A DNA stretch of 64,000 nt, taken from assembly GCA_951406725.2 (NCBI GenBank), contig OX597833.1, positions 54,188,001-54,252,000 on the forward strand. Reading direction: 5' to 3'. Made by a program: the position numbers and the translations under genes. Shown piece after piece: positions 2,330-62,491 of this stretch. Each line of letters starts with the position of its first letter. The first letter of the stretch is position 1. The DNA is from Octopus vulgaris (lineage: Eukaryota). Below the pieces are notes generated by a model. It made no database searches. It had not been told where the DNA came from and saw nothing but the letters and a program-made list of their open reading frames with translations.

Positions 2330-2690
2330 TTAGCTGCAGGCTGGTTTTTCGATTATCAGCGCGCCAAAAGTAGAGGCATTTGAAAAATACATCCGAACGT
2401 AATAGGTTGTACTTTTTGCATGCGGGACTCCGGTACCGTTTTTCATCTAGTACAGCATATTATGCTCATAACAAACTACGCTGACGAAGCTACAGATATC
2501 CTTGTGATATTAATAGCTGAAACTGTACGGTACGTAGGTGATTATTCCATTTCGTATATTTCTTTTGTCTTATCCATTGCTTTAGGTCGTGCTGAATTTT
2601 ATTTTTATTTGAGAACAAAATCTTTGTGGAAAATGGCGATTTGACGTCTATATCTAGCATGTTGACTGTCCACCTTTTCGTGTTCAGTCC
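2330..2690 (+). promoter_or_regulatory. CpG-retaining unique segment; possible promoter/first exon with YY1-like and CRE-like motifs
   Basis: Higher CpG content than surroundings; AAAATGGCG (~2630) next to TGACGTC (~2642); candidate donor CG|GTACGT after 2529. Confidence 0.3.
2420..2529 (+). CDS. putative exon ([37 protein letters not shown]), unknown protein
   Basis: Open frame ending at a phase-2 donor CG|GTACGT, compatible with the candidate exon at 9966; no homology recognised. Confidence 0.2.
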
Positions 2691-3559: not shown

Positions 3560-3770
3560 TTTCTAGAGGGTTGGATGGTATTAGCTAAATTAATGTTAGT
3601 ATTAGTAAATGTATTAATATTTAACAGTTTGTTATTATGAGAAGATATAATTTGCAAGAGATTTTTTGTGTTTGAAAAACCTATCCTAACCTTATGTGAA
3701 TTAATTATAGAGTAATATCTAGAATTGTTTGGAAAATTCTCTAGTAAACACGGTTATAGAACGAGCATAC
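3560..3770 (-). mobile_element. Penelope-like element ORF fragment (RT-endonuclease linker)
   Basis: Minus strand reads LENFPNNSRYYSIINSHKVRIGFSNTKNLLQIISSHNNKLLN, resembling the PLE linker pattern FP..H....IFN...VK.SYS...N...IISSHNKK. Confidence 0.65.
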
Positions 3771-4292
3771 AGATGTAAGCATTGGCAGAAACATACTTTT
3801 AGTGCATATAAGTAGTCTCTATCATTATATATAGTTTAAACTTTAATTTCCTTTATATTTAACATTCACTATTAATATCCCTACTCTTTCTGTTAGCTAC
3901 TTATGACGTTATATCATATAACGTTTTTTTAAACAATATTAATAGCGTTCTGTTTATCGCTATACGAATCCATCATTTTTTGCTAAAATGTCGTATTGAC
4001 GAGTTTCGTTTTTTCACTTTCCCGAAGAGAAGATTGCATTGTTTATACCTTTTATTCTTTTGAATAGTATCAGTGGAATTTTCGAAACATATGTAGAAAG
4101 TAAAAATACTTGTTTAAACCTGTGTTAACTCCATTTTTTATTCATATTATTCAAAATATTCAACGTAAACACGAAGTTTCAACCTTTATAAACAAGGAGT
4201 TACAACATCTTTACTTGTGAGATTTTTGCTGCCCTGGTAACTATTTATTTATTTATCCGTGTTAATTGTTAACAAGGTAAAATACACTCATC

Positions 4293-5339
<1,047 letters not shown>

Positions 5340-8928: not shown

Positions 8929-8973
8929 AACACAACGTTTCGGCTGATATACCCTTAGTCTTCATCAGGTTTT
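8929..8973 (-). ncRNA. minimal hammerhead-ribozyme-like motif (degenerate)
   Basis: Minus strand AAAAC-CTGATGA-AGACTAAGGGTATATCAGCC-GAAAC-GTT-GTGTT; canonical core, weakened stems. Confidence 0.5.
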
Positions 8974-20050: not shown

Positions 20051-20256
20051 TTCACTTATTTTACGGGGATGTAAACACACCAGCATCGATTGTCAAGTGA
20101 TGTTGGGGACACAAACACAGACACACAAACATATACACACATACATATATATATAGTTAATCCAAACATGAAAACACAAAGAGAAAACACAACAACGTGA
20201 GGACGTGGAACAAATATAGTATTATTGGACGCTTAGGAAGGAAGGGAAGAAGGAGG

Positions 20257-20291
20257 GTTTAATGTTTCGAGCGGAGCTCTTCATCGGAAAC
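20257..20291 (-). ncRNA. minimal hammerhead-like motif, CCGAUGA core variant, in a ~210-bp element inserted into a SINE
   Basis: Minus strand GTTT-CCGATGA-A-GAGC-TCC-GCTC-GAAAC-ATT-AAAC; stems I and II pair perfectly. Confidence 0.5.
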
Positions 20292-20669
20292 ATAGGAGAA
20301 GGAAAGATCCAGAGAAGGGAAGACAGAGGAAAAAAATCACCAACGGTACACACGCGGTCACATTTTGACGGGCTTCTTTCAGTTTCCGTCTATCAAATCC
20401 ACTCACAAGGCTTTGGTCAGCCTGAGGCTATAGTAGAAGACACTTGCCCAAGGTGCCATGCAGTGGGACTGAACTCAGAACCATGTGAGTTCAGAACTCA
20501 GAATATAGAGAACTTGAAGAAATGCTAGTATGCATTTTGACCAATGTTGCTAACAGTTCTGCCATCATGCTGCCCTAATGCCAGCTCACTGCCCTGGGGC
20601 CATATTGCTGCCCTTACCCTTGTTCCTCTCTGGAACAACTACAATAGCAACAACAATGACAACAACTAA

Positions 20670-36140: not shown

Positions 36141-36290
36141 CTCTACATGAGGGAATGCATATGCCATATATATATATATATATATAAAGGGAAAGTTTAC
36201 AAAAATAAACAAAAGACGAAGGCAGGTGGAGTACAAAACAAAGTACAAACAAACAAATGTATTAGTATAACGCTCAGGAATAGAAAAAGT

Positions 36291-36326
36291 CTTTTATGTT
36301 TCGAGCCTACGCTCTTCGACAGAAAG
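36291..36326 (-). ncRNA. hammerhead-like motif, CUGUCGA core variant
   Basis: Minus strand CTTT-CTGTCGA-A-GAGC-GTAG-GCTC-GAAAC-ATA-AAAG inside a ~170-bp repeat (36190-36360). Confidence 0.45.
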
Positions 36327-37389
36327 ATACACAGAAAAAAACAAGGAGAGAAAAAATGTGTGTATATATATATATATATACATGGTGGGCTTCTACCTTT
36401 GAGTGTAGTGTACAGTATTTTCTGACTGGTGTAGTCAGTTGTTAAAGCCATTGTCATTACTTTTAGTTGGCAGCCTTAAATTAGAAATTGGAGATAACAT
36501 TTTCAGAACTACCTACATCAAAGAGCTTTTTAAGAGAGATGTTCTGTGAAAGGTAAAGTCATGGACAGAGTTTTTAAAATGCAAAAGATAAAACTGGCGA
36601 TTATTGTAGGGAGAACAGAGGTGTTTATTGGTTCTTTTGAAGATCATTAGGTCTTTGAAAAGTGTCCCTTTTATTTATATTTGACAGAAAAGTAGTATAG
36701 AAAGTAAATAATGAGAATTCCCACAAAAGACAAAAAAAAAAGATCACTTTTGATGAGGCTCAGCTGCGCAAAATGTTTGATTTGTGTCACTTTTGAAAAA
36801 TTATTCCCTGGTCATTTCAGCAGAGGCCACAATACGGTTTTGCATTTAATGAGCTGAGTGAAGAACATGAAAATCTATCATGGCTAATCTAAAGTAAGGG
36901 GCCTAATTTGGGGCTGAAGTCAAGGTTCGAGTTTTGTACCAGTTGTACCCCACCCAACATCGCTTGACAACCAATGCTGGTGTGTTTAGGTCCCCGTAAC
37001 TTAGCGGTTTGGCAAAAGAGACCAATAGAATAAGTACTAGGCTTACAAAGAATAAGTCCTGGGGTCAATTTGCTCAACTAAAGGCGGTGCTCCAGCATGG
37101 CCACAGTCAAATGAGTGAAACAAGTAAAAGAGTGAAAAGAGTAAAAGAGGGTTTGAACGTTGAGTTTTCAGATCTTGTGAGTTTGATTGTGTGAATTTTC
37201 CAAGTCCTCTCCCCCCTCCACCCCGCATTCATCAGTGCGCATTTTTTTCTTCATATTCGTTTACTACACATTGTTTTACACCTATTTACACTATTTTTAC
37301 TCAGTTTTTTTTTGCTCGAGTTTGAAACTGGAGTTTAACCGAAATTATAATCATATAAAAGAAACGTATTCTTCTTTCTTGCAGATGAA

Positions 37390-46259: not shown

Positions 46260-46412
46260 CATTTGTCTGTCTGTCTGTCTGTCTCTGTCTAAGTTTGTAC
46301 CTCTCTCTCCATCCTCCTCACTCTCACTTTATATGTCTACATTTATGGTGCCATGATTGACCACTAGCTCCAAAAGACTTTTTATTCTCTCTCTGTTTAT
46401 TTCCTCGTGTTC

Positions 46413-46448
46413 CTTCCTGTTGAAGAGCACAGGCTTGAAACGTAAAAG
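46413..46448 (+). ncRNA. hammerhead-like motif, CUGUUGA core variant
   Basis: CTTC-CTGTTGA-A-GAGC-ACAG-GCTT-GAAAC-GTA-AAAG inside a ~155-bp repeat (46376-46530). Confidence 0.45.
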
Positions 46449-46643
46449 ATTTTCTCACCTTCCTGAGTGTTAAACTAATACACCTGTTTGTTGTTTATAC
46501 ACCTGTCTTCATCTTTTCTTTTTCTGTAAATGTCAGCTATCATCATCCTCATTATCATCATCATGTGTTGGACGGTTTGACTGAGGACATGCAAGGAGCC
46601 CTTTTTTGACCCATTCATTATAAAATTACACATACATGCATAC

Positions 46644-59504: not shown

Positions 59505-60160
59505 ACAAAAGACAAAGACAGGTGTATAAACAACAAGAAGGTGTATTAGTTTGACATTCGGGAAGGTGAGAAAGTCTTTTATGTTTTGAGCCTACACTCT
59601 TCAACAGAAAGGAACTTGAGGAAATAAACAGAGAGAGAATAAAAAAATACTTTTGTAGTTAGTGGGCAATCATGGCGACTGAAATTTACAGAAAAACAAA
59701 AGATGAAAGATGGTGTATAAACAACAAGCAGGTGTATTAGTTTGACACACAGGAAGGTGAGAAAGTCTTGTACATTTCGAGCCTATGCTCTTCTGCAGAA
59801 AGGAACATGAGAAATAAACAGGAAAGAATATATATGTGTATATATATATATATATACTGAAGTCACAGTTGTAAATTGTAAAACACAACTGCATGAACCT
59901 GAAGATTGCATAGTTTAATGCATGAAAGTACTAGTTCAATCAGAATGGACATTTAATATTCTATCATTTCATTATATTATATCATCTTATATTATATTAT
60001 TATAAGGTTGTAAATAAAACGTGAAAATCAACAAACAGATGTATTAGTTTAATGCTCAGGAAGTGAGAAAGTATTTTTATGTTTTGAGCCTATGCTCTTT
60101 GACAGAAAGGAACACAAAAATAAACAGGGAGAGAAAATAGGAAAAGGTATAGTGGCTAGC
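59505..60160 (-). mobile_element. cluster of three ~150-bp units, each with a hammerhead-like motif (retrozyme / Penelope-derived)
   Basis: Units ~59505-59660, 59680-59830, 60010-60160 share GTGTATTAGTTT...GTGAGAAAGT...GAGCCTA.(G/A)CTCTT...AGAAAGGAAC with 36190-36360 and revcomp of 46376-46530. Confidence 0.7.
59894..59938 (+). ncRNA. minimal type I hammerhead ribozyme
   Basis: TGAAC-CTGAAGA-T-TGCAT-AGTTTA-ATGCA-T-GAAA-GTAC-TA-GTTCA: 5-bp stem I, CUGANGA core, 5-bp stem II, GAAA, palindromic GUAC loop III, UA cleavage site. Confidence 0.75.
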
Positions 60161-62095: not shown

Positions 62096-62491
62096 TATAT
62101 CATAAGAGTGACCTTTCTCTCATGTCAGTTTGCAGCATCTGCCTTTCCGGTCTCTTCAGAAAGAGATTAGCATGGTCCCTGCTCAAAGAGGACACACAAA
62201 TCTTACCCAATCTTTAAACTTGCCTACCTCCAGTTTTTTGCTCCCACTCCAACCCCGTACACTCCTGCAAACTCCACACCCTCTCACACACCTAGTTCCA
62301 TTGTCCTTGTCCCATCACACTTCTACTCACCTCACACCTTGTGGAGACACCTGAGCTTCAATCAGTGCAGTATCTCTTCCTTTGTCTACCATTCTTATTA
62401 TATACAAAGTCCAATGGACTGCAAAATCAAAATTTAGCAACTACGCACATTTTTCTGACCAAGGTGGAGATGCTTTTAGATATAGACTTAG

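What the first reader, a model, noticed from the sequence alone, without database searches (positions are those of the whole stretch)
59505..60160. Retrozyme-like ~150-bp repeat family with a non-canonical hammerhead core (CUGUYGA)
Seen: five copies (36190-36360, 46376-46530 and three clustered here) carry versions of CTTT-CTG(T)(T/C)GA-A-GAGC-NNNN-GCTC-GAAAC-GTA-AAAG. This is hammerhead topology, but the normally invariant A6 is usually U and stem III (AC/GU) has no loop, so it could form only intermolecularly. Known: animal non-LTR retrozymes are short, often tandem hammerhead-bearing repeats that yield circular RNAs and are thought to be mobilised by Penelope-like elements; PLE fragments occur at 3560-4645. 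Inference: a cephalopod retrozyme/PLE-terminal family with a variant core, possibly undescribed.
Basis: partly seen in the sequence, partly recalled or inferred. Interest (0 to 1): 0.72.

Follow-up and report, generated by a model that had tools for sequence, protein, structure and literature searches.

The report
Penelope hammerhead with fixed U6 core
The repeat is the leftover end-piece of a very abundant Penelope-type jumping gene, not a retrozyme, and its hammerhead-shaped RNA motif has U in place of a normally fixed A in nearly all copies, young intact elements included, which likely makes it a slowed-down self-cutting RNA that the element likely need not cut in order to spread.

Summary
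The five copies are real, but they are not a tandem retrozyme. They are 5'-truncated 3' ends (pseudo-LTRs) of a Neptune-type Penelope-like retrotransposon. Walking upstream led to young elements with an open RT + GIY-YIG frame and the motif in both pLTRs. The loop-less ACGU stem III is the published minimal PLE hammerhead.

The unusual part is A6U. Of 10,724 exact motif matches only 192 (1.8%) have A6, and 94 of the first 100 listed have U6. Among four U6 subfamilies the 36-nt motif varies only at positions 7 and 17, the two free hammerhead positions (2 of 36 columns, against 40 of 109 in the flanks). Sister lineages carry a canonical core or U4C.

Cleavage is untested. Most insertions run through the predicted cut site, matched subfamilies show no excess of ends there, and RNA reads show no end pile-up. 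Best reading: a constrained but slowed hammerhead; rival: a cleavage-dead RNA signal. I found no paper reporting U6, but could not read the most relevant one. This scan has noted the same variant before, in this genome and in others.

The parts
59505..59676 (-). 5'-truncated pLTR copy; motif 59576-59611 with U6/U7, decayed (G12>A, G16.2>A); 3' end abuts (TA)n
59680..59830 (-). 5'-truncated pLTR copy joined head-to-tail to the 59505 copy (85.5% identical); motif 59767-59802 with C6/A7 and a stem I mismatch
60026..60142 (-). pLTR copy; motif 60074-60109 with U6/C7, decayed (G8>A, G12>A, G16.2>A, stem I end changed)
36180..36356 (-). pLTR copy closest to the L167-type subfamily (85%); motif 36291-36326 with U6/C7, one change (G16.2>A)
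46349..46539 (+). pLTR copy; motif 46413-46448 with U6/U7, stem I mismatch beside the core and C11.1>U
20158..20368 (-). pLTR copy of the sister lineage (G-C outer stem I pair, 3-nt loop II, A6); motif 20257-20291 has C4, but its flanks group with canonical-core copies in the tree

Best explanation
The repeat is the 5'-truncated 3' end (pseudo-LTR) of a young Neptune-type Penelope-like retrotransposon, and the minimal hammerhead motif in it carries U at core position 6 across the lineage, which likely leaves a slow, dimer-dependent ribozyme that is likely still under selection but not needed for each insertion. Shown: the parent element, the fixed 3' end about 137 nt past C3 with ragged 5' ends, microsatellite 3' flanks, U6 in young intact elements, and variation confined to positions 7 and 17. 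Inferred: the element's endonuclease nicks (TA)n, reverse transcription starts inside the RNA about 105 nt downstream of the predicted cut and runs through the motif, so the template is mostly uncut or re-ligated. Inferred: two motifs pair through their ACGU palindromes to form helix III and cut after position 17, slowly and perhaps only with help from the element's protein. Predicted: A6U lowers the rate, so that more intact template survives.
For: Parent: long copies continue into RT and GIY-YIG coding sequence; 5 of 5 long-frame loci fetched (L157-L161) have an open frame of 1119-1214 codons and the U6 motif in both pLTRs; Pfam RVT_1 E 1.7e-7 above cut-off, GIY-YIG E 0.007 below cut-off. 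U6 is the master state: A6 in 192 of 10,724; the selected A6 copies are scattered among U6 copies in a flank-only tree of 216 of 217 copies. Constraint: 2 of 36 motif columns versus 40 of 109 flank columns vary among four subfamily majorities, Fisher p=1.2e-4, and the two are N7 and H17; in 9 of 9 cross-subfamily pairs of single copies found through protein or upstream sequence, motif 1-3 differences of 36 versus flanks about 30-38%. G17 in 1 of 100 listed matches (hand count). One compensatory stem I pair against sister lineages. Literature: min-HHRs cleave weakly and only as dimers (PMC4209133); a PLE hammerhead is protein-assisted and dispensable for insertion in vitro (PMC11167929); natural A6C is slow but active, better in Mn2+ (PMC3088659, PMC7151607).
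Against: No cleavage has been shown. All single mutants in the CUGA turn had low activity in a mutational scan (PMC9901934). 32 of 34 bystander copies anchored downstream keep the motif upstream. No excess of 5' ends at the predicted cut in subfamilies both patterns can see: 2 of 30 of 225 matches (about 15) versus 13-14 of 30 of 86 (about 40) at a control site. About 2,770 RNA reads from 3 runs of one study show no end pile-up, with both strands equal. U6 is predicted to favour an off-path pairing of positions 5-6 with 15.1-15.2 (P 0.50-0.98 in 5 U6 copies, 0.00-0.10 in 1 A6 copy). Stem II never varies, so covariation rests on one pair. Motif folds are no more stable than shuffles (z -0.46 to 0.61, 5 of 5). 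The motif-versus-flank contrast is not significant for 6 of 15 single-copy pairs except one at p=0.024 (close relatives), nor for 1 of 6 subfamily pairs.
Confidence: 0.5

Rival explanations
1. The motif no longer cuts. It is kept as an RNA structure or binding signal for the element's RT/endonuclease, and U6 was fixed because cutting is useless or harmful to the template.
For: Two abundant lineages each carry a different core change (A6U; U4C with 8,152 exact matches), against 2,034 canonical-core matches (patterns differ in length, so only a rough comparison). No cut-site signal in DNA or RNA. Catalytic mutants do not affect insertion in vitro (PMC11167929). Naiad PLEs spread without canonical HHRs (PMC8557442).
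Against: Variation is confined to exactly N7 and H17, with G17 rare, which is the pattern a catalytic fold predicts. G8, G12 and the C3-G8 pair are unchanged in all seven group majorities.
Confidence: 0.33
2. U6 is a fully working variant in vivo: the element's protein, Mn2+ or an unseen tertiary contact compensates, and unit-length RNAs are cut and re-ligated into circles that serve as templates.
For: 8 of 8 full units have a fixed 3' end and 5' pLTRs of variable length (-393 to -1441), as copying round a circle or along a tandem transcript would give. A6C recovers activity in Mn2+. 6 of 30 cut-site loci are young-subfamily copies starting at the predicted cut.
Against: Those 6 junctions all share a T|A microhomology with (TA)n and have no matched control. 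Tandem-transcript templates explain variable pLTRs equally well. No RNA ends seen.
Confidence: 0.1
3. The repeat is a non-autonomous tandem retrozyme with its own short circular RNA.
For: Two window copies are joined head-to-tail.
Against: 1 of 90 loci with a close same-strand neighbour; the joined copies are only 85.5% identical; upstream sequence continues into the PLE ORF; 5' ends are ragged.
Confidence: 0.03
4. A6U is a neutral accident in one founder element and the motif is under no selection.
For: Related subfamilies share any founder state.
Against: The motif is far more conserved than its flanks among subfamilies; reads and contigs from other runs pile up on the core and fall off at its edges.
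Confidence: 0.04

Closest known systems
[quoted passage not shown]
   Same: Short stem I, extra nucleotide between 9 and 10.1, G10.1-C11.1 pair, palindromic 15.2-16.2 with no loop III, H17, position in both pLTRs, mostly single truncated copies. The Acropora Neptune example in Fig. S3 has nearly the same layout.
   Different: All 56 representatives listed in Fig. S3 have A6 (their search required it); here U6 is fixed, also in intact young elements.
Neptune clade of endonuclease-positive Penelope-like elements (as described in Craig et al. 2021, PMC8557442; passages and supplement part 54 of 59 read)
   Same: Single ORF, RT then CX4CxxC linker then C-terminal GIY-YIG with CCHH, DKG motif, no IFD, pLTRs, (TA)n targets.
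   Different: Non-canonical HHR core; clade placement is by motif comparison only, no reference tree was built.
Natural A6C hammerhead of phage Bcep176 (PMC3088659, PMC7151607; passages read)
   Same: Natural pyrimidine at position 6 in an otherwise intact core.
   Different: A single phage ribozyme with C6 and measured activity; here U6 in roughly 10,000 retrotransposon copies, untested.
Animal non-LTR retrozymes (PMC7229834 passages; bioRxiv 10.64898/2026.07.22.740005 part 1 of 5)
   Same: Type I HHR in an AT-rich short repeat, linked to PLEs.
   Different: Retrozymes are non-coding tandem units with canonical HHRs; this repeat is dispersed, has a minimal HHR and is the end of a coding element.

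Membership tests
Neptune-type PLE | Single ORF with RT followed by C-terminal GIY-YIG endonuclease | tested here: met
   L157: 1082 aa from Met; RVT_1 above cut-off, GIY-YIG E 0.007 below cut-off, motif visible
Neptune-type PLE | CX2-5CxxC linker, CCHH and DKG motifs, no IFD | tested here: met
   Seen in the L157 translation, compared by eye with Figs S1-S2 of PMC8557442
Neptune-type PLE | Partial-tandem pLTRs with fixed 3' end | tested here: met
   8 of 8 units: pLTR ends at +136 to +139, starts at -393 to -1441
Neptune-type PLE | Insertion into (TA)n-type microsatellites | tested here: met
   85 of 91 motif hits have a microsatellite just past the 3' end
Neptune-type PLE | RT groups with reference Neptune elements in a tree | not tested
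   No reference set was fetched; Nematis excluded only by linker length, by eye
PLE minimal hammerhead | Stems I and II, bulge after A9, G10.1-C11.1, palindromic stem III, NUH site | tested here: met
   G17 in 1 of 100 rows
PLE minimal hammerhead | Core CUGANGA with A6 | tested here: not met
   A6 in 192 of 10,724
PLE minimal hammerhead | Covariation in stems | tested here: inconclusive
   One compensatory pair (outer stem I) among seven group majorities; stem II invariant; one group breaks a stem I pair
PLE minimal hammerhead | Self-cleavage as a dimer | not testable with these tools
   Indirect tests negative or inconclusive
Non-LTR retrozyme | Tandem arrays of short units | tested here: not met
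   1 of 90 loci
Non-LTR retrozyme | Non-coding, non-autonomous unit | tested here: not met
   Continues into a coding element
Non-LTR retrozyme | Unit-length circular RNA | not testable with these tools
   No RNase R data; no joints listed

The most novel reading that the evidence does not exclude
U6 defines a naturally tuned-down, protein- or metal-gated hammerhead, and Penelope lineages repeatedly fix rate-lowering core changes (A6U here, U4C in the sister lineage) because a slower cut leaves more intact template, so weakening the ribozyme is itself what makes a lineage amplify.
Probability: 0.25. Interest if true: 0.75.

Novelty: new variant of a known kind. Interest (0 to 1): 0.5.

Why it matters
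What the hammerhead does in Penelope elements is an open question (PMC8557442 and PMC11167929 both leave it open). This genome holds a natural series on one scaffold with an identical stem II: canonical core, U4C and A6U, the last in intact, near-identical elements. That allows a direct comparison of cleavage rate against transposition. Searches that demand A6 miss at least about 10,000 motifs here, so statements that a PLE family lacks a hammerhead may need rechecking.

Tried and rejected
Rfam scan: no hammerhead among 150 of 190 rows shown. Retrozyme reading rejected. Window PLE fragment 3560-4645 as parent rejected. A hidden A6 subfamily inside the U6 lineage: not seen; the A6 copies (30 loci picked for A6) are scattered in the tree, but branch support is low and one cluster of 8 held 6 A6 copies. 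Idea that A6U and U4C converge on one off-path helix: rejected, since the C4 and canonical motifs are predicted to misfold in other ways. Mapping 5' ends of 39 bystander copies by BLAST extension failed because alignments ran into microsatellites; that histogram was discarded and replaced by a presence test. Cut-site test: by design it excluded partners ending in U or in a hammerhead half, so chimeras were not tested, and the young subfamily had no matched control. No RNA holder was listed for the window stretch. The RNA runs laid do not cover the young element's 5' region or ORF start and may be another species. The read and contig tables list no A7 although it is the commonest state in G000, and 13 rows were hidden, so they cannot show that A6 is absent elsewhere. 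Lunse et al. 2016 (PMC5785218) is not held. Paper searches (listings only, apart from papers cited as read) found no report of an A6U PLE hammerhead.

Full report
Observation. The five copies are at the stated places and are 72-86% identical to each other. Each carries a 36-nt motif: 4-bp stem I, core, one extra A, stem II GAGC/GCUC with a 4-nt loop, GAAA, the palindrome ACGU, position 17, stem I. Position 6 is U in 4 of 5 and C in 1 of 5; position 7 is U, A, C, C, U; none of the five is intact. Rfam listed no hammerhead among the 150 of 190 rows shown.

What the repeat is. A genome search gave 3,138 candidates; the 30 best loci are dispersed, 88-91% identical to the query apart from the query's own locus, share a sharp 3' end followed by a microsatellite, and have ragged 5' ends. 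Walking upstream led into decayed RT and GIY-YIG coding sequence in the six loci fetched. A protein search found many long open frames. Five loci fetched for the longest frames (L157-L161) hold elements with frames of 1119-1214 codons (1082 aa from the first Met in L157), 97.5-99.5% identical to each other, with the U6 motif in both pseudo-LTRs and 5'/3' pLTR identity of 99.1-99.8%. Pfam gives RVT_1 above cut-off and GIY-YIG below it. The DKG motif, a CX4CxxC linker with a long spacer, CCHH and the absence of an IFD match the Neptune rows of Figs S1-S2 in PMC8557442 by eye. In 8 of 8 full units the pLTR ends at +136 to +139 from C3 and starts anywhere from -393 to -1441. 85 of 91 motif hits have a microsatellite just past the 3' end, and 1 of 90 loci has a same-strand neighbour within 400 bp, namely this window. 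The repeat is therefore the truncated 3' end of a Neptune-type PLE and not a retrozyme. The PLE fragment at 3560-4645 gives no tblastn hit to the family's protein.

The motif. Stem sizes, the bulge after A9, G10.1-C11.1 and the loop-less palindromic stem III are the published min-HHR (PMC4209133). All 56 representatives in its Fig. S3 have A6, but that search required it. In G000 a 29-nt pattern with positions 6 and 7 left open has 10,724 exact matches and its reversed control 0; A6 accounts for 192; U6U7 has 1,519 and A6U7 58. Of the first 100 rows (hand count, all on contig C1) 94 have U6, 4 C6, 2 A6, and among the U6 rows position 7 is A 42, G 21, U 19, C 12. In a tree built on flank columns only (216 of 217 copies) the U6 lineage forms one clade (support 0.89-0.97), and the A6 copies picked on purpose are scattered inside it, as later point mutations would be; inner support is low.

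Constraint. Clustering 217 copies on flanks gave 9 clusters of three or more (179 copies). Among the four largest U6 subfamilies the majority motif varies at 2 of 36 columns, positions 7 and 17, against 40 of 109 flank columns (p=1.2e-4). Most copies were collected with a motif anchor, so I repeated the test on six single copies found through the protein or upstream sequence: all 9 cross-group pairs show 1-3 motif differences against 30-38% in the flanks (p 1e-5 to 1.5e-3); the 6 within-group pairs give p 0.024-0.46. G17 occurs in 1 of 100 rows (hand count). Reads from 3 RNA runs fit only the 40-nt core, with loose ends on both sides, and contig word depth from 4 further runs is about 5 to 20 times higher on the core than on the downstream flank; both tables may miss variants.

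Sister lineages. A broader pattern has 24,266 matches; its first 100 rows are 69 U6, 2 C6, 2 A6 of the same type, 22 of a U4C family (one with A4) and 5 with a canonical core (hand count). The U4C family has 8,152 exact matches and canonical relatives 2,034 (some could be CpG decay of U4C copies). The U4C loci L168 and L169 encode a protein 44-71% identical to L157 in pieces. With a canonical copy as root, the U4C family nests within canonical copies and U6 forms a separate clade, so the two changes likely arose separately. The outer stem I pair switches between C-G and G-C, the only compensatory change; stem II is invariant.

Does it cut? Not shown. Against: CUGA-turn mutants had low activity (PMC9901934, passages); 32 of 34 bystander copies run through the predicted cut; copies starting at the cut are not in excess in matched subfamilies (2 of 30 of 225 versus 13-14 of 30 of 86); no read ends pile up there; U6 is predicted to favour an off-path pairing; folds are no better than shuffles. 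For: variation follows the hammerhead rules; natural A6C is slow but active (PMC3088659, PMC7151607, passages); the one PLE hammerhead studied with its protein also shows no read ends at the cut, cleaves only with protein, and is dispensable for insertion in vitro (PMC11167929, parts 1-2 of 4). In all, 11 of 30 cut-site loci had foreign sequence upstream; 6 of these belong to the young subfamily, all with T|A microhomology and without a matched control.

Mechanism. I commit at 0.5 to a slowed, dimer-dependent, probably protein-assisted hammerhead kept by selection while most templates stay uncut; 0.33 to a cleavage-dead RNA signal; 0.1 to a fully active variant. The identification as a PLE end is about 0.97.

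Novelty. The element type and the minimal hammerhead are known. I found no paper reporting A6U in a PLE hammerhead, but Lunse et al. 2016, which lists many small PLE hammerhead variants, is not held and may bear on this; supplements of the 2026 bioRxiv preprint were not seen. Earlier notes of this scan report the same variant in this genome and A6U in other genomes; I did not check the other genomes. Position numbering follows the papers cited. Verdict: new variant of a known kind, interest 0.5.

Noticed in passing
window 20257-20291 (-); L173-L202: Sister lineage with U4C core, 8,152 exact matches in G000, likely derived from a canonical-core family; one subgroup also breaks a stem I pair.
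   Followed up: partly
window 2481-2522 (+): Another hammerhead-like motif with canonical A6 core and a long stem II/loop II, from an unrelated repeat ending in (TA)n.
   Followed up: no
window 8938-8968 (-): Hammerhead-like motif with canonical core and an imperfect stem II, unrelated to this family.
   Followed up: no
window 3560-4645: GIY-YIG-like fragment on the + strand near 4335-4640 with no similarity to the Neptune-type protein; probably a different PLE clade.
   Followed up: partly
L157-L161 and about 100 further places: Many near-identical elements with open frames of 600-1214 codons suggest a recently or currently active autonomous PLE family; the frame runs on into a variable pyrimidine-rich tract.
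   Followed up: partly
L001-L030, L067-L126, L173-L232: Short copies start mostly 30-110 nt upstream of C3 in both lineages (59 of 116 U6-lineage copies between -80 and -31, approximate); a transcription start or an RT stop there would explain the ~200-bp size.
   Followed up: partly
window 62157-62215 (+): Weak Rfam match to U6 snRNA (29 bits, below the gathering score).
   Followed up: no
L002, L006, L100, L107: Opposite-strand neighbour copies within 140-430 bp, as in the inverted arrangement described for PLE insertions.
   Followed up: no
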